From positions 30,380,001 through 30,444,000 of the forward strand of contig NC_088861.1 in the NCBI RefSeq assembly GCF_963853765.1: DNA of 64,000 nucleotides, in the 5' to 3' direction. How positions within the stretch are numbered: position 1 is the stretch's first letter; each line of letters starts with the position of its first letter. Below are positions 16,001 to 22,000 of this stretch, one piece after another. Position numbers: made by a program. This stretch comes from Magallana gigas. Lineage: Eukaryota.

Positions 16001-19000
16001 CAAAAGAATCAGAAATATTTAACACAATCTCTCTAAAAGCAGTAAAATCAACAAAAAGGCATCATCATGGGAATTTATTCTTTCAACATAACTTAAAATC
16101 ATTCTTTATGGAAAACTAGAGTCTAAAACTGGACAGATCACAATTGGCCCCTTACCTGGCCTCATTGAGGACAAACTGGGAGATGGGGTCCAAAGTTTTG
16201 GCAAAAGCTCTCTGTAGAACCTGTAGTGAGAATAAAACAGATGCCTTAGATTAGACAGCCACATTTTTAACATACTGAGTTCTCAGTTGGTTAATTATCA
16301 AATTCAATTGGGTGAACTTTAAAACTTCTTAATAGAAAACTTAAATTTATCAAATGAAAACAAACCATTAGATAGTGCTTTTAAAATTCATATTCTATCA
16401 GTGCTTGACACTCTAACTATATAACACTAAGGTGTAATATACACATATCTTGCAACACAAGTGCTCACAGATTTTCATGATATCAAAAGTGAATCAACCT
16501 TCAAAAATCAGCAAAAAAAAAAAAACTTAATATGCAGATTTGCCTTTTATAAGCCCTATTACCCATTTTCCCTTTTTGTGCCTCTTTTAATTTAATATAA
16601 TCTTCTGCCATACTTCAAAAAATAAAATTAAACCTTAAGCCACTAGCTATTAACAAAAGGATCAGCCAAAAAAATATAATCATATTTCTAAAGACAGTTT
16701 CATTCAAATCAGTCAGAAAACAAATTTCCACCTCACTGCAACCCCAACACAATTGTTGCCGATTTTTTTATATATTTTATTTTTACCCCTTCCACAGTTT
16801 TGATTGGTTCTGGCTCATAAGTATCTGTCTCGGGCTTTCTCTGATACTGTCCAAGGCGAATGATAATTAAGATTTAAAAAGAAGAAAAAAAATGAAAAAT
16901 TGAAAATTGTTTCTATGTGTAATATTGAATTCACACAGGACAAGGGAATAGAGATTGAGTGTTTTCTAGCAACTGAACACAAGGAGGATTCAATTATAAA
17001 TCATTACACAAAAAACATTGGAAATTACAAGATATCTTTTTCATAAGACAACTAACATTTGGAATGGGGAATCTACAAGATTGAGAAAGGGGACTTCTAA
17101 ATACAATCTATAATACTATTTTACAATGAGAAAATCATAGTATAACTAACTTGGAGTCTTAGGATTAAAAATCAATTCTGCATCTGGTTAAATAAACTTT
17201 AATTTAATTTCTAAATGAAAATTTAACTTTAAGCTGCAAAAACTATGATTCAGAATTAACAGAAAGATAATTGCCATTGCATTGTTTTCAATTTCAATTT
17301 TAATTCTTTCTATTTACTTTTTATATACTAAATGGTCTGCAAAGATTTCTTTGAAAAAAAAATTATACTTTAAATTTTCGATCAATTCAATAGAATGTTG
17401 AAAAGCTTTAAGAAATTCAAGTTTGCAAATTTTAACAAAACTTAGTATAAAGGTCACGATGCATCATTGATCAAGGTCACTCAAGGTCACTCAGATCCTA
17501 CACAGATATACACTAGTTACTTATAAAAATACTGTCACCACTCACTGAGACCAACAGTTGATGAGCCATCTCCTCCTGGATAGGGAATTCAAAACATCTC
17601 AAAATATACAGTATCTTAAATTTGTCTAAATTCATAATTAGCTGTATAATCGCTTATATATATGATCAATAACCTTGTAGCCTAGTACATACATTATACA
17701 AGTTTCCTAATACTACTACAACCCTTAGCATTTGTTAACTATATGTGACTACATTATTGTTACTCTGCAGCTGTCTAGCTATCCCATATTTGATTGGCTA
17801 AGATTTAAAACACCTTAATGCTGATTGGTTATTTTTTTTATTAGAGTATTATCTGGCAAATGATTGGATGATAGGGATATCCAATTTTCATTGGTTAGAT
17901 AATGTTACTTTATGAACTAAATGTTCTTAATTTAAAAAAAGTCAAAATGTGTTACTGTTATGATTCCATTGCAATGGAATGTGTAGAAAATGTTAGAAGT
18001 TTATTTTTCTTTATCTACAATTAAATTTTTTATAAATTAATGCAAATTAATTGAGGGTTCTGGATAGAACAAACTCATGGATAAAAATAGAATTTACATA
18101 GAGATAAAGACCGCCAACCAGGGAAATAGAAAACTGAAAGCCATGTTTAGAAGATACCCCGTTCTATATATAGATATGACATCATTGCATGATGATCTTA
18201 CCCTGGTAAATTTATGATGTGGAACATTCTGAAGGAAAAGACTCAATCGGTCATTCTGAGGCTATCTTTACAATACTGAAGAAAATTCTCTTGTCTTTGG
18301 TTTGTTAGTAATAAGTCACTGTTTCAAATGGGTGTTATTACGGTGAAAATGTCAAAACTTTTAAATGAGCAATAAACTTTGGTTCCTCTCTCTCTGCGGC
18401 AAGAGTTGGGGGAGTGATAAAAAAATAATTTTAGCATACAGTTTTGCAGCAAACATGAAATGAATAAACTTTGAAAAAAAAAATTGAATGAAAAAAATGA
18501 AAGTAATGGAAGAGTCATAATAAGAGTACCAGAAATTGCTTTGAATTATGAGAAAATTCAAATTGATACACATGTTCAAAAACATTACAAATAAATTGAG
18601 AGGAACCAAACACCCCCTTTTTTTCAATTTTTGTTGTTGTTGTTGTTGAATAGTACATACATTTTTTAATTTGTGAATCTACTAATAAACCACAAAAAAA
18701 CCAACAAGTGATGAACACACACACAGCCTTACCTGCTCCTAGAGAGCCAATCAAAAAACAGGTCGTGACATTAGAAACAGTTTATACATGTTACGAGTGA
18801 TTACAGAGGTCATCAAAGGGCATATCAAACAGAACTATATGTATATAAACAAAATACATGTATATAGTTACTCTAAAGAATTATGGCAGAATTTAAGTCT
18901 TCCATCTAGATTAAACTAACTCTATATCATAACACTGCTAGATTAATCAATAAAATTCTAGGAGGGGTAATGTAATATTCTAACAAAACTCTTGAAAAGA

Positions 19001-22000
19001 TATAGCATTTACAATAATATGTTTTGGAAAGCTGCAGTCTTATACATAAAGTTTGATATATTGAAACAGAACTGAAAATTATAACATGTAAAACTTTTGA
19101 ATGCAACTGCAGTGTGAAACTTACATGGATTTCCTGAGGACTCCGGCTCTCCAGCCATGCGTCTGCAATTGGTTTCCATCCCAGGACATCTTTGTCAATG
19201 TACACAATTCCCTAAAAAATTGAAAGATAACACAATATAGAATGCATGAATTTTCATCACTTATCCATTTTGTTGTATCATAATTGCTTTTAATTGATTT
19301 TCAAGGACTTGACAAAAACAGTTAAAGAACATTCATTTGATCACCGGTATCCCTTGATCTTCCTTAAAATTGCAATGATTTATGATCGACAAATGAAAAC
19401 TTTCATTTTTTTTCAGCTACCAGTAAATCACTAAAATGCTGTCTGTCTCATTCAAACACACAACAATTGATCTCTTAAACCCAGCTTTTAGTAAACCATA
19501 AGTGATGCTGGTGTCTATAAATGTTATACATGTATTAACAAACATCTTTATTCATTATGACATCTTCACTAGTGAATGGTTTCTGATCCGGACCACTCTT
19601 AAACTTACTGAAGCATGGTGCCGATCAGAAACCCTTGGTTTAAGGAAAGATGTCATTATCATAGATAATGGAAACTAAAGGTAAACATTGGAAACTTGAG
19701 GTAAACATTGGAAACTTAGATAAACATAGGAAAATTAAGGTTAACATTAGAAACTTAAGGTAAACACACCGATCTGGAGACTGAGGCGGGTGAGGCGTTG
19801 CTGAGGTTGTCCGTCTCAAAGATGACGATGATGTTGTCTGACAGGAACATCTTGTCGCCGTTCTTCAGATGCAGGACCTACAATGGACAAGACAGGATAC
19901 AGACACTGTTACTATCTGAGTCACCCTGGGCTTGCCTTGGTTTAAACAAGGAACTCTTACCCGCAGAGGTGGCCCTTATTGAACCAGATAAATGGCTGAA
20001 TCAACTAAACATCTTTTAAATAATCTTGACAAACTAACTGTGTATTTCAAGTTTCAAAGAAAAATAGCATACATAGCAACAATTTTCTACCTTAGTTTTA
20101 TAAATAATGAAAATTTGACTTCAATGATATAAAAATCTTATTTTCAATACAGATTTGTCAGCTACATTCCTAAAAGCTCTCTACCTGAACTAAATTGACT
20201 GACTGAATGTTCCTCTTAGGTTTTTAACTTTTGAAATAAATTTCATCTTTAATTATCACAGATTTGACCTTTGAAATATAATTATTTGGCCTCTGACACA
20301 GATTTGACCTTTGACAAACATACTTGGCCTCTGACACAGATTTGACCTTTGACACAGATTTGACTTTGGGCAAAGATTCGAAATTTGCCACAGATTTGGC
20401 CTTTGACATAGATTTGAACTTTGACACAGACTGTGGGGTACCTTGTCTCCATTCAGGATGGGGTTGAAGTTGTCGGCCCAGCCCGGGTTCAGCGGTCCGT
20501 CCAGACACAGCCAGGTGGTGCTCTGGTTCTGTTGACAGAGAAAAATAAAATTTATCAGTCAAAAACACATTGAAACATTTAGAAGTTCTTACATAAAGTA
20601 ATAAATAACTACAGTGATATAATTTGGCTTTTATTTTTTCAATATCCCTATTTAAATAAAATTCTTTGATTTTGGAATCAAAATAACTATTATTACTATA
20701 ATTTTAATAAACTCTCAAACAACAAACTGCTTGTGCGATGTGAATTAAAAGTTCAACAGCTGGTATCTTTTTTCAAATATTATCAAAAATCAAAATCTAA
20801 ATATTATGCATATATCTCATATACATGTCTGTACAATTGATCTGCAAAACAACAACCTCCGATCTTGAAAACTGTAGGAGGAGATATCCGTACAATAGGG
20901 GTACACTTTTAGCAGCCGCCAGCCCACCTATGCCGTTTTCACCATTTCAATAACCAGATATTTCCTTTGGAAAACCCATTAAAAATACAGGTCGCCTACA
21001 AACAGACTATTTATAAAGCCACAAAAGTTTATTCCATGAAGAAATATCACTTACCCTGTTGGCTTTTCTACAGGCGGAGGTGAAGATTCCATCGACCCAG
21101 TCGTTGTTGACGTTGAGATATCCAAACATGAGTGAACAGTCGTCAACCACCATGGGGTTGATTTTGATCAGTTTGTGCTGGTTCTCTTGGATGTTCCCGG
21201 TGGTGCGGGAACCCTGGGATTGCCGGGACGTCCCCGCCTGATTGGACAGACTGAGGGCGTCCACCAGCGTCTGGATACAGCTGCTCTTCCCGCTGCCTGG
21301 GGGACCAGCTACTATCACTCCTACAGCATAGAAGGGGGAAAATTTTGATATAGGAATAGATCTTTGACATATGGCTGAAATATATCATATACCATAATTT
21401 AGTTTTGCAGGGAAAAAAATCAAAATGTAATGCAGCAAGTCTTTAAATTGCAACATTTGACAAAAAATAATAATCTCAATTTCTTCAAAACTTGGAATTT
21501 TTAAAAATGAGTTATTTTTCCTATCCAATAATGCAGCCTCATCACTTGCATAAAACCACCCAATCTTAAACTTTTTGATGTATATATTATACAAGTTAAT
21601 TAATAGCCCAAGTCTTCCACTGGATTGTTTAACCTATATTTAATTCAATTTTTGTAAAAATGCATGTCATAGATTGGATAGAAACACCTAATTTAGGATT
21701 TGATGAGGTATTAACCAAAATTAAATATTCCAAACTCATCCACTAGATTAGTTGATCAGTTTGACCCACATGTACATTTGATTAACCCCGCCCCCTTACC
21801 GTGGTGTACTTTGGAGATATTGTACAGCTGTTTACAGCGCTCTATCCACGGGTCGTGAGCCACCAGCCCTTTATCCACACTTTTCTGCTTCAGAACCAGC
21901 TCCACGTCAAATCCACGTGACCTTGCGGAGGGGATCTGGTGGACCGTGGGTGGATCAGGCAGGCCCGCAAATATGTCATTCAGTATGTGCTTGAAGATCT

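What the first reader, a model, noticed from the sequence alone, without database searches (positions are those of the whole stretch)
16221..19124. Four frame-preserving micro-exons in one AAA2 intron
Seen: the 2.9-kb phase-0 intron holds four AG...GT segments of 6, 27, 30 and 54-60 nt. All are multiples of three, stop-free in phase 0, and have GTAAG-, GTGAG- or GTAAA-type donors. The flanking exons also join without them. Inference: a combinatorial micro-exon cassette that adds a variable loop of up to about 40 aa to the AAA2 small domain.
Basis: partly seen in the sequence, partly recalled or inferred. Interest (0 to 1): 0.65.

Follow-up and report, generated by a model that had tools for sequence, protein, structure and literature searches.

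The report
Small alternative exons in oyster dynein
An intron of an oyster dynein motor gene hides at least two genuine tiny exons, one of them conserved across molluscs, that add a flexible loop to the motor; two further tiny candidates look good but remain unproven.

Summary
On the minus strand, the phase-0 intron 19124..16221 holds AG...GT segments of 6, 27, 30 and 60 (or 54) nt. All are stop-free multiples of three.

Two are real exons. A public Crassostrea angulata protein (LOC128183562 isoform X10, P0025) reads ...SPQEIH|NVPHHKFTR|YQRKPETDTYEPEPIKTVEG|VLQRAF..., the exact translation of the 27-nt and 60-nt segments.

The junction is an insertion hot-spot. Of 64 orthologues with both flanks aligned, 48 join directly and 16 carry 2-46 extra residues. 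Ten of those inserts end in the same [KRE][TS][VIL]EG motif as the oyster 60-nt exon.

The 6-nt and 30-nt segments appear in no protein I could see. Their splice signals are good: an equally good in-frame pair arose in 0 of 3000 shuffles for the 6-nt and 140 of 3000 for the 30-nt.

The insert lies just before the Pfam AAA2 lid domain. AlphaFold models it as a low-confidence coil.

Verdict: a real, partly annotated cassette, ordinary in kind and undescribed in print.

The parts
3915..60853 (-). Dynein heavy-chain gene. 79 exons were mapped from the ATG at 60853, covering residues 1-4156 of the 5495-aa orthologue P0025. The gene runs off the window's low end.
   Evidence: Pfam hits on single ORFs: DHC_N1, DHC_N2, AAA_6, Dynein_AAA_lid, AAA_7. 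Exon map against P0025.
19125..19211 (-). Exon 52, 87 nt, ends in phase 0. Last strand and short helix of the AAA2 large domain (GIVYIDKDVLGWKPIADAWLESRSPQEIH).
   Evidence: 100% identical to P0025 residues 2896-2924.
16221..19124 (-). The 2904-nt phase-0 intron of the finding (GTAAGT...ACAG). In isoform X10 it is split into three introns by exons 53 and 54.
18733..18738 (-). 6-nt candidate exon GAGCAG (Glu-Gln). Unverified.
   Evidence: Acceptor 7.0 bits, donor 12.6 bits (99th percentile of the gene's real donors). No equally good in-frame pair in 41,654 nt of other introns or in 3000 shuffles. An in-frame TAG lies directly upstream, so 6 nt is the only frame-compatible way to use this donor apart from a 3-nt version with a weak acceptor (2.4 bits). 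Absent from P0025.
18202..18228 (-). Exon 53, 27 nt, NVPHHKFTR. A real exon.
   Evidence: Identical to P0025 residues 2925-2933. Acceptor 10.2 and donor 9.5 bits. An equally good pair arose in 4 of 3000 shuffles and in none of the other introns.
17546..17575 (-). 30-nt candidate exon, EEMAHQLLVS. Unverified.
   Evidence: Acceptor 9.4 bits; donor 5.4 bits (9th percentile of real donors). One equally good pair in 41,654 nt of other introns, and in 140 of 3000 shuffles. GC 0.50 against 0.29 for introns, the top 3.6% of 30-nt windows in this intron. Absent from P0025 and unlike any orthologue's insert.
16787..16846 (-). Exon 54, 60 nt, YQRKPETDTYEPEPIKTVEG. A real exon, conserved in molluscs. A possible tandem acceptor at 16840 would give 54 nt.
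   Evidence: Identical to P0025 residues 2934-2953. Ten orthologue inserts end in [KRE][TS][VIL]EG, and Potamilus also starts with YQ. Its splice sites are weak (4.9 and 5.7 bits).
16156..16220 (-). Exon 55, 65 nt, starts in phase 0. First long helix of the AAA2 lid domain (VLQRAFAKTLDPISQFVLNEA...).
   Evidence: The Pfam lid profile starts at this residue in the orthologues.

Best explanation
The window carries a giant axonemal-type dynein heavy-chain gene on the minus strand. It is related to DNAH5/8 (outer-arm gamma type) but is a separate lineage, roughly 5300-5500 aa long.

The 2.9-kb phase-0 intron between the last exon of the AAA2 large domain and the first exon of the AAA2 lid domain holds a cluster of small, frame-preserving exons.

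Shown:
- The 27-nt and 60-nt segments are spliced into a public isoform of the Crassostrea angulata orthologue.
- The 60-nt exon is old. An exon ending in the same ...TVEG-type motif sits at the same junction in mussels, clams, a freshwater mussel and several gastropods.

Inferred:
- These exons are cassettes, included or skipped by ordinary exon-definition splicing. Very short exons depend on strong splice sites, and the 27-nt and 6-nt segments have them.
- Inclusion adds a charged, proline- and threonine-rich loop of 9-41 aa between the short helix that closes AAA2-large and the first lid helix. The loop probably lies on the surface at the hinge beside the AAA2 nucleotide pocket. There it could tune hinge motion or offer a docking or modification site.

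My odds that each unverified segment is really used: about 0.5 for the 6-nt and about 0.3 for the 30-nt.
For: Gene identity:
- Pfam DHC_N1, DHC_N2, AAA_6, AAA lid and AAA_7 in order on single ORFs.
- The best solved relatives of the orthologue P0009 are human DNAH5 (8j07, 1074 bits) and the Chlamydomonas outer-arm gamma chain (7kzm, 1013 bits).

Exons:
- P0025 reads SPQEIH|NVPHHKFTR|YQRKPETDTYEPEPIKTVEG|VLQRAF.
- Both peptides map to 18228-18202 and 16846-16787 with AG/GT borders.

Hot-spot and conservation:
- 74 proteins were examined and 64 had both flanks aligned. Of those, 48 join directly and 16 carry inserts.
- Ten inserts end in [KRE][TS][VIL]EG: C. angulata, Mytilus, Potamilus, Mya X7, Mercenaria, Ruditapes, Patella caerulea, Babylonia, Pomacea and the unnamed P0027.
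- The patterns seen across species are: none; first unit only (Mya P0024, EKDEQR); first plus last (Mya X7, Mercenaria); first plus middle plus last (Ruditapes); last only (Mytilus, Potamilus); 27-nt plus last (oyster).

Statistics:
- The four candidates rank top among 129 frame-keeping pairs.
- 7 pairs observed against 0.99 (shuffles) and 0.70 (other introns) expected.
- Per-candidate shuffles.
- At 4 of 6 junctions next to decoy pairs in other introns, none of 19 aligned full-length proteins has any insert.

Position in the protein:
- In P0009, AAA_5 covers 581-731, the insert 762-784, and the lid profile PF17852 starts at 786.
- In the AlphaFold model of the insert-free snail orthologue P0005, the junction (residues 580/581) lies at the N-terminal end of helix 576-600, with pLDDT 84-90.
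- In the model of Potamilus residues 570-905, the insert is coil with pLDDT <50 between confident helices.
Against: - No transcript data were available. Inclusion rests on one predicted RefSeq-style isoform, and that such models are RNA-supported is my recollection of the pipeline, not a tool result.
- No oyster protein with the direct junction, the 6-nt exon or the 30-nt exon was seen.
- The oyster cluster has 110 members, but its members could not be listed.
- The two Mya models that differ at this junction come from different annotations of one contig, so they do not prove alternative splicing.
- The verified 60-nt exon has weaker splice scores than many decoys: 5 equally good pairs in other introns and 0.53 per shuffle. 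My scoring therefore separates real from false only loosely.
- Low pLDDT for the insert may simply reflect that few alignment rows carry an insert.
- Any function of the loop is pure inference.
Confidence: 0.85

Rival explanations
1. All four segments are used exons and are combined freely, giving inserts from 0 to 41 aa.
For: The four are the best-scoring frame-keeping pairs in the intron. The 6-nt pair is unmatched in 3000 shuffles. Three of the four highest-GC 30-nt islands in the intron coincide with the 6-nt, 60-nt and 30-nt segments. Several unit combinations are seen across bivalves. The gene's isoform cluster is large, with 110 members.
Against: The 6-nt and 30-nt segments are in none of the 74 proteins examined. 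EEMAHQLLVS is hydrophobic at its end and unlike every other insert. An equally good pair arises in 4.7% of shuffles. No within-oyster evidence for skipping or for free combination.
Confidence: 0.15
2. The 27-nt and 60-nt exons are constitutive small exons in oysters, not cassettes. The direct junction exists only in other species or in incomplete gene models.
For: The one oyster protein seen includes both. Many direct-join models come from automatic annotations, which often miss tiny exons. That is an inference, as the sources are named only.
Against: The representative is labelled isoform X10 of a cluster with 110 members. RefSeq-named isoform series of other species (Biomphalaria X3 and X4, Lineus X2, Nematostella X3) join directly. 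Seven other exons of at most 45 nt in the gene are missing from most orthologue models.
Confidence: 0.2
3. The 6-nt segment is not an exon of the mRNA. It would be a chance or regulatory pairing of a 3' and a 5' splice site, such as a decoy or a recursive-splicing-like intermediate site.
For: It is absent from P0025, although a 15-nt exon was placed elsewhere in that model. Close acceptor-donor pairs are the hallmark of recursive sites (recalled).
Against: The intron is only 2.9 kb and the sites are 6 nt apart, not abutting. The pair keeps the frame. Read aligners commonly miss 6-nt exons (recalled), so its absence from a model is weak evidence. Haliotis has a 2-aa insert (NQ) at the same junction, though an upstream alternative acceptor could also explain that.
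Confidence: 0.4
4. The whole pattern is chance AG...GT spacing in an AT-rich intron.
For: 129 frame-keeping, stop-free AG..GT pairs exist in the intron. Equally good pairs to the 60-nt exon are common.
Against: Exact identity of two segments to a public isoform. Motif conservation across 10 taxa. 7 pairs observed against about 1 expected, with 0 of 1000 shuffles reaching 7.
Confidence: 0.02

Closest known systems
Crassostrea angulata LOC128183562 isoform X10 (P0025; name as given by the source)
   Same: Orthologous gene. Tblastn pieces against the window are 85-100% identical. It has the same 27-nt and 60-nt exons, with identical peptides at the same junction.
   Different: It is a predicted protein of a sister species or haplotype, named 'uncharacterized'. 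It lacks the 6-nt and 30-nt segments. Nothing about regulation or function is attached to it.
Animal cassette micro-exons (3-27 nt, or up to 51 nt in wider definitions; the neural SRRM4/eMIC-dependent programme). Definitions recalled, not from a call.
   Same: Very short, frame-preserving, with strong splice sites on the shortest ones. They insert a few residues into a surface loop of a folded domain, and some are deeply conserved.
   Different: The host is an axonemal-type dynein and the tissue is unknown. A TGC within 15 nt upstream of the acceptor is seen for only 1 of 9 small exons of this gene (output) and for neither unverified candidate. The 60-nt exon exceeds the size limits.
Outer-arm dynein gamma heavy chain / DNAH5 (8j07, 7kzm)
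   Same: Best solved relatives. Same order of DHC_N1, DHC_N2, AAA1-AAA4 and C-terminal domains.
   Different: The family here is 5.1-5.5 thousand aa long against 4.5-4.6 thousand for the solved chains. The AAA1 P-loop reads GPVGVGKT (ORF 28069-28425). In the representative search with the snail orthologue, no representative was more than 50% identical to the query, and one representative of DNAH5's length (P0086, 4624 aa, identity to DNAH5 not checked) was 31% identical. I did not examine whether DNAH5 itself has any insert at this junction.
Known AAA2 inserts of dynein (the H2 beta-hairpin and pre-sensor-I inserts that touch the linker). Recalled, not from a call.
   Same: Lineage-specific extra loops on AAA2.
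   Different: Those lie inside the AAA2 large domain and are constitutive. This insert lies after the last strand, at the large-to-small domain transition, and is encoded by separate small exons.

Membership tests
Cassette micro-exon | Internal exon of very small size bounded by AG and GT | tested here: met
   6, 27 and 30 nt meet it. The 60-nt (or 54-nt) exon is above the recalled limits of 27 or 51 nt.
Cassette micro-exon | Present in mature mRNA or protein | tested here: inconclusive
   Met indirectly for the 27-nt and 60-nt exons through identity to public isoform P0025. Not met for the 6-nt and 30-nt segments, which are absent from all 74 proteins. No RNA data on hand.
Cassette micro-exon | Skipped in other transcripts of the same species | not testable with these tools
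Only cross-species differences were seen.
Cassette micro-exon | Keeps the reading frame in both the included and skipped forms | tested here: met
   The flanking exons are both phase 0, and all segments are stop-free multiples of three.
SRRM4/eMIC-type neural micro-exon | UGC-containing enhancer just upstream of the acceptor (recalled definition) | tested here: not met
   A TGC within 15 nt upstream occurs at 1 of 9 small exons of the gene, and at neither the 6-nt nor the 30-nt candidate. Tissue specificity is not testable.
Dynein heavy chain | N-terminal DHC_N1 and DHC_N2 followed by the AAA1-AAA6 ring domains | tested here: met
   on window ORFs. on orthologues P0009 and P0024 (AAA_6, AAA_5, lid, AAA_7, AAA_8, AAA_9, Dynein_heavy, Dynein_C).
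DNAH5 / outer-arm gamma orthologue proper | Close, full-length similarity to DNAH5 | tested here: inconclusive
   DNAH5 is the best solved match. But the family is about 700 aa longer, no representative exceeds 50% identity to the snail orthologue used as query, and a representative of DNAH5's length is 31% identical. No tree was built.
Recursive splice site | Abutting 3' and 5' splice sites inside a very long intron (recalled definition) | tested here: not met
   The sites are 6 nt apart and the intron is 2.9 kb.

The most novel reading that the evidence does not exclude
The intron is one node of a gene-wide programme at least as old as the molluscs. Some 9 to 11 cassette exons of 6-60 nt, including a working 6-nt exon, would be combined to build tissue-specific versions of a dynein motor that mammals lack. 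The AAA2 hinge loop, with its conserved ...TVEG end, would act as a regulated docking or modification site.
Probability: 0.2. Interest if true: 0.6.

Novelty: new member of a known kind. Interest (0 to 1): 0.4.

Why it matters
Dynein heavy chains are usually treated as one protein per gene. Here the motor ring itself appears to be varied by tiny exons at the hinge of AAA2, at a site kept since before bivalves and gastropods split.

If inclusion differs between sperm, gill cilia and larval cilia, this would be a compact natural experiment on how a loop beside the AAA2 nucleotide pocket affects an axonemal-type motor.

It is also a practical warning for annotation. 48 of 64 orthologue models join the flanks directly, and some of those may simply have missed the small exons.

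Tried and rejected
- **Isoform look-up.** The oyster isoform set stayed unseen.
- **Early homologue searches.** The first two could not reach full-length dyneins because of the tool's length windows. Only the third, queried with public protein P0009, did.
- **Representative search.** Run with P0005, it returned nothing above 50% identity. Oyster isoforms are collapsed there, so it said nothing about the 6-nt or 30-nt segments. Of 145 further proteins screened, 6 had both flanks: 4 join directly and 2 (P0112, P0154; weak flanks) carry an unrelated 13-aa insert.
- **Repeats.** No repeat or transposon explanation was found. One 29-nt match elsewhere in the window and only short low-score tandem repeats, none overlapping the candidates.
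- **RNA genes.** Rfam and tRNA scans of the window found nothing.
- **Literature.** Five searches were made and only the listings were read. No listed paper concerns micro-exons of dynein heavy chains or of molluscs.
- **Other in-frame pairs in the intron.** 18678-18661 (18 nt) and 18163-18158 (6 nt) have weak sites and no support.
- **GC island.** The strongest one, near 18414, gives no frame-keeping exon that passed the thresholds.
- **Haliotis 2-aa insert (NQ).** I considered it as support for a 6-nt exon but set it aside, because an upstream alternative acceptor would give the same residues.
- **Not used or not possible.** Complex prediction was not used, as no binding claim is made.
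Full report
**What is in the window.** The window holds no N. Its best protein matches are oyster and other mollusc proteins, so I do not take it for human. Single ORFs on the minus strand match, in order, DHC_N1 (about 56.4 kb), DHC_N2 (38 kb), the AAA1 module AAA_6 (28.4 kb), a P-loop exon (21.3 kb), Dynein_AAA_lid (15.8 kb) and AAA_7 (14.8 kb). This is a dynein heavy-chain gene. Mapping the public orthologue P0025 gave 79 exons, from the ATG at 60853 down to 3915. P0025 is Crassostrea angulata LOC128183562 isoform X10, 5495 aa; the name is as given by the source.

**How the searches were run.** The window's exons were searched only one at a time. Full-length comparisons used public proteins that the searches returned.

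**The observation.** Read on the minus strand, exon 52 (19211-19125) ends in phase 0 at ...CAT|GTAAGT, and exon 55 starts at 16220 after ...ACAG. Between them lie four segments:
- GAGCAG (18738-18733), flanked by ctctctAG and GTAAGG.
- A 27-nt segment (18228-18202), flanked by ccttcAG and GTAAGA.
- A 30-nt segment (17575-17546), flanked by tatccAG and GTGAGT.
- A 60-nt segment (16846-16787), flanked by ggacAG and GTAAAA, with a second AG 6 nt further in (54 nt).

All are stop-free multiples of three.

**Is it more than chance?** I built weight matrices from 76 acceptors and 76 donors of the same gene, leaving out the two exons in question. I then scored all 827 AG..GT pairs of 3-90 nt in the intron. 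Of these, 129 keep the frame without a stop. The 27-nt, 6-nt, 30-nt and 54-nt segments rank first to fourth, and the 60-nt version ranks seventh.

At lenient cut-offs, 17 pairs pass and 7 of them keep the frame. In 41,654 nt of the gene's other introns, 79 pairs pass. Thirteen keep the frame when the intron's own phase is used, and 10 when phase 0 is used throughout, which gives 0.70 expected per 2904 nt. A thousand dinucleotide shuffles gave a mean of 0.99, and none reached 7. The antisense strand of the intron gave 0.

| Segment | Equally good frame-keeping pairs in other introns | Shuffles with an equally good pair, of 3000 |
|---|---|---|
| 6 nt | 0 | 0 |
| 27 nt | 0 | 4 |
| 30 nt | 1 | 140 |
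| 60 nt | 5 | not run (0.53 per shuffled intron) |

The 60-nt exon turned out to be real despite its weak sites, so these scores are only a loose guide.

**Direct evidence for two of the four.** The third homologue search returned 64 proteins. Together with the earlier hits, 74 were examined. P0025 reads ...SPQEIH NVPHHKFTR YQRKPETDTYEPEPIKTVEG VLQRAF.... The two inserted peptides are the exact translations of 18228-18202 and 16846-16787. It is the 60-nt version that is used, not the 54-nt one. The 6-nt and 30-nt segments are not in P0025.

**The junction across species.** Of the 74 proteins, 10 lacked one or both flanks. Of the other 64, 48 join the flanks directly and 16 have 2-46 extra residues.

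The inserts are:
- Potamilus: YQTVTSNHVEGEEHTEKMRTVEG.
- Mytilus X10: RPVNVEQGETDQSLPRTVEG.
- Mya X7: EKDEQR plus FAPNDNPESPDNVIPERTVEG.
- A second Mya model: EKDEQR only.
- Mercenaria X6: EKDEAK plus a 24-aa unit ending KTVEG.
- Ruditapes: the same two units with a further 15 aa between them.
- Patella caerulea: LKVKNTDETVEG.
- Babylonia, Pomacea and the unnamed P0027: 12-13 aa ending KSIEG or KSLEG.
- Littorina: 14 aa. Gigantopelta X3: 46 aa. Haliotis: NQ.
- The hemichordate Glandiceps X3: 9 aa.
- Branchiostoma belcheri: 23 aa. Its upstream flank is itself aberrant, so I distrust that model.

Ten of the 16 end in [KRE][TS][VIL]EG like the oyster exon, and Potamilus also begins with YQ. The last small exon is therefore at least as old as the split between bivalves and gastropods. 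Across bivalves a tiny first unit, a variable middle unit and the conserved last unit occur in several combinations. All seven heterobranch gastropod species seen join directly.

By contrast, I checked six junctions next to decoy pairs in other introns. At four of them, none of 19 aligned full-length proteins has any insert.

**What is not shown.**
- I saw no oyster protein with the direct junction, with only one of the two exons, or with the 6-nt or 30-nt segment.
- The representative library collapses isoforms and returned nothing above 50% identity.
- The two Mya models that differ at this junction come from different annotations of one contig.
- Alternative and combinatorial use in oysters is therefore an inference, not a result.
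- That the X10 model is RNA-supported is my recollection of how such models are made.

**The two open candidates.** The 6-nt segment has a good pyrimidine tract and the best donor in the intron (12.6 bits). An in-frame TAG lies directly upstream, so 6 nt is the only frame-compatible way to use that donor apart from a 3-nt version with a weak acceptor (2.4 bits). Nothing as good occurred in the controls. Read aligners often miss such exons (recalled), so its absence from one model weighs little. I put it at about 0.5.

The 30-nt segment has a good acceptor, a mediocre donor and a local GC peak: 0.50 against 0.29 for introns and 0.51 for exons, in the top 3.6% of windows. Its peptide resembles no other insert, and a pair as good arises in about 5% of shuffles. 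I put it at about 0.3. Neither overlaps a repeat.

**Where the insert sits.**
- In Potamilus P0009, Pfam places AAA_5 (AAA2 large domain) at 581-731, the insert at 762-784, and the start of Dynein_AAA_lid at 786. Mya P0024 gives the same picture.
- An AlphaFold model of the insert-free snail orthologue P0005 (25-row alignment, mean pLDDT 71) has strand 552-555, helix 563-571 and helix 576-600. The exon junction (580/581) lies at the N-terminal end of that long helix, with pLDDT 84-90.
- A model of Potamilus residues 570-905 (24 rows, mean pLDDT 78.7) shows the insert as coil, with pLDDT below 50 over 19 residues. The lid helix starts exactly at VLQRAF.

So the cassette lengthens the connection between AAA2-large and the first lid helix. 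The low confidence may partly reflect how few alignment rows carry an insert. That this hinge borders the AAA2 nucleotide pocket is textbook AAA+ geometry (recalled). Any effect on motor activity or partner binding is inference.

**Comparison with what is known.** This is a set of small cassette-type exons, which is a known kind of feature. Two of them are already present in a public predicted isoform.
- The neural SRRM4-type programme is not indicated. A TGC within 15 nt of the acceptor occurs at 1 of 9 small exons.
- The 6-nt pair does not fit a recursive splice site.
- The host gene is closest to DNAH5 and the outer-arm gamma chain among solved structures. It belongs to a longer, divergent lineage found in molluscs, annelids, nemerteans, brachiopods, echinoderms, hemichordates, amphioxus, tunicates, some fishes and a frog, cnidarians, placozoans and sponges. 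No mammal appears in the lists.
- Five literature searches, of which only the listings were read, found nothing on micro-exons in dynein heavy chains or in molluscs.

**Verdict.**
The 27-nt and 60-nt exons are real, and the site is a conserved insertion hot-spot at the AAA2 large-to-lid transition.
- The 6-nt and 30-nt exons, and combinatorial use in oysters, remain open.
- Novelty: a new member of a known kind. Interest: moderate.

DNA-level conservation in other oyster genomes could not be checked, because the only open contig collection holds bacteria and archaea.

Noticed in passing
window 58955-58920, 58291-58277, 50057-50031, 41904-41881, 39078-39055, 25067-25041, 6721-6677 (minus strand): Seven further small exons (36, 15, 27, 24, 24, 27 and 45 nt) lie elsewhere in the same gene in isoform X10. 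Most are absent from most of 18 aligned orthologue models, so the gene as a whole looks rich in cassette micro-exons.
   Followed up: partly
window 39078-39055 (minus strand): The 24-nt exon 29 (GSVKYHIP) has look-alike 8-10-aa inserts at the same spot in five gastropods, three heterodont bivalves, the nemertean Lineus and amphioxus. It may be an even older alternative exon than the one in the finding.
   Followed up: partly
window 28400-28105 (minus strand) and the whole gene: The dynein is not a plain DNAH5. The AAA1 P-loop reads GPVGVGKT and orthologues are 5.1-5.5 thousand aa long. In the representative search with the snail orthologue, a representative of DNAH5's length is 31% identical. 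The family occurs in many invertebrate phyla, sturgeon, paddlefish, bichir, coelacanth and a frog, but no mammal appeared in the hit lists. No tree was built.
   Followed up: partly
window 16846 and 16840 (minus strand): Two acceptor AGs lie 6 nt apart at the 60-nt exon. The inner one scores higher (6.6 against 4.9 bits), but the public isoform uses the outer one. This may be a tandem alternative acceptor that adds or drops Tyr-Gln.
   Followed up: no
window about 18414-18385 (minus strand): This is the strongest GC island of the intron (0.63 in 30 nt), just after a ...ccgcAG. No frame-keeping exon there passed the thresholds. Its meaning is unknown.
   Followed up: no
window 14581-14519 (minus strand): A 63-nt in-frame AG..GT pair with a strong donor (10.2 bits) lies in the intron after exon 59. 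Mytilus X10 has an insert of about 9 aa at that junction, but the peptides are not alike.
   Followed up: partly
window 53803-54647: A 177-bp tandem repeat of 4.8 copies lies in the intron after exon 8. It produces a ladder of spurious splice-site pairs in the scan.
   Followed up: no
window 10020-10063, 34388-34434, 57214-57306, 45657-45905, 20257-20430: (CT)n and (AG)n microsatellites and 18-21-bp minisatellites lie in introns. They explain several long repetitive ORFs in the mechanical ORF list.
   Followed up: no
whole gene against P0025: Tblastn pieces are 85-100% identical to the C. angulata protein (for example 97.8% over the first 180 residues). The window is therefore a close relative or another haplotype, not that exact record.
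   Followed up: no
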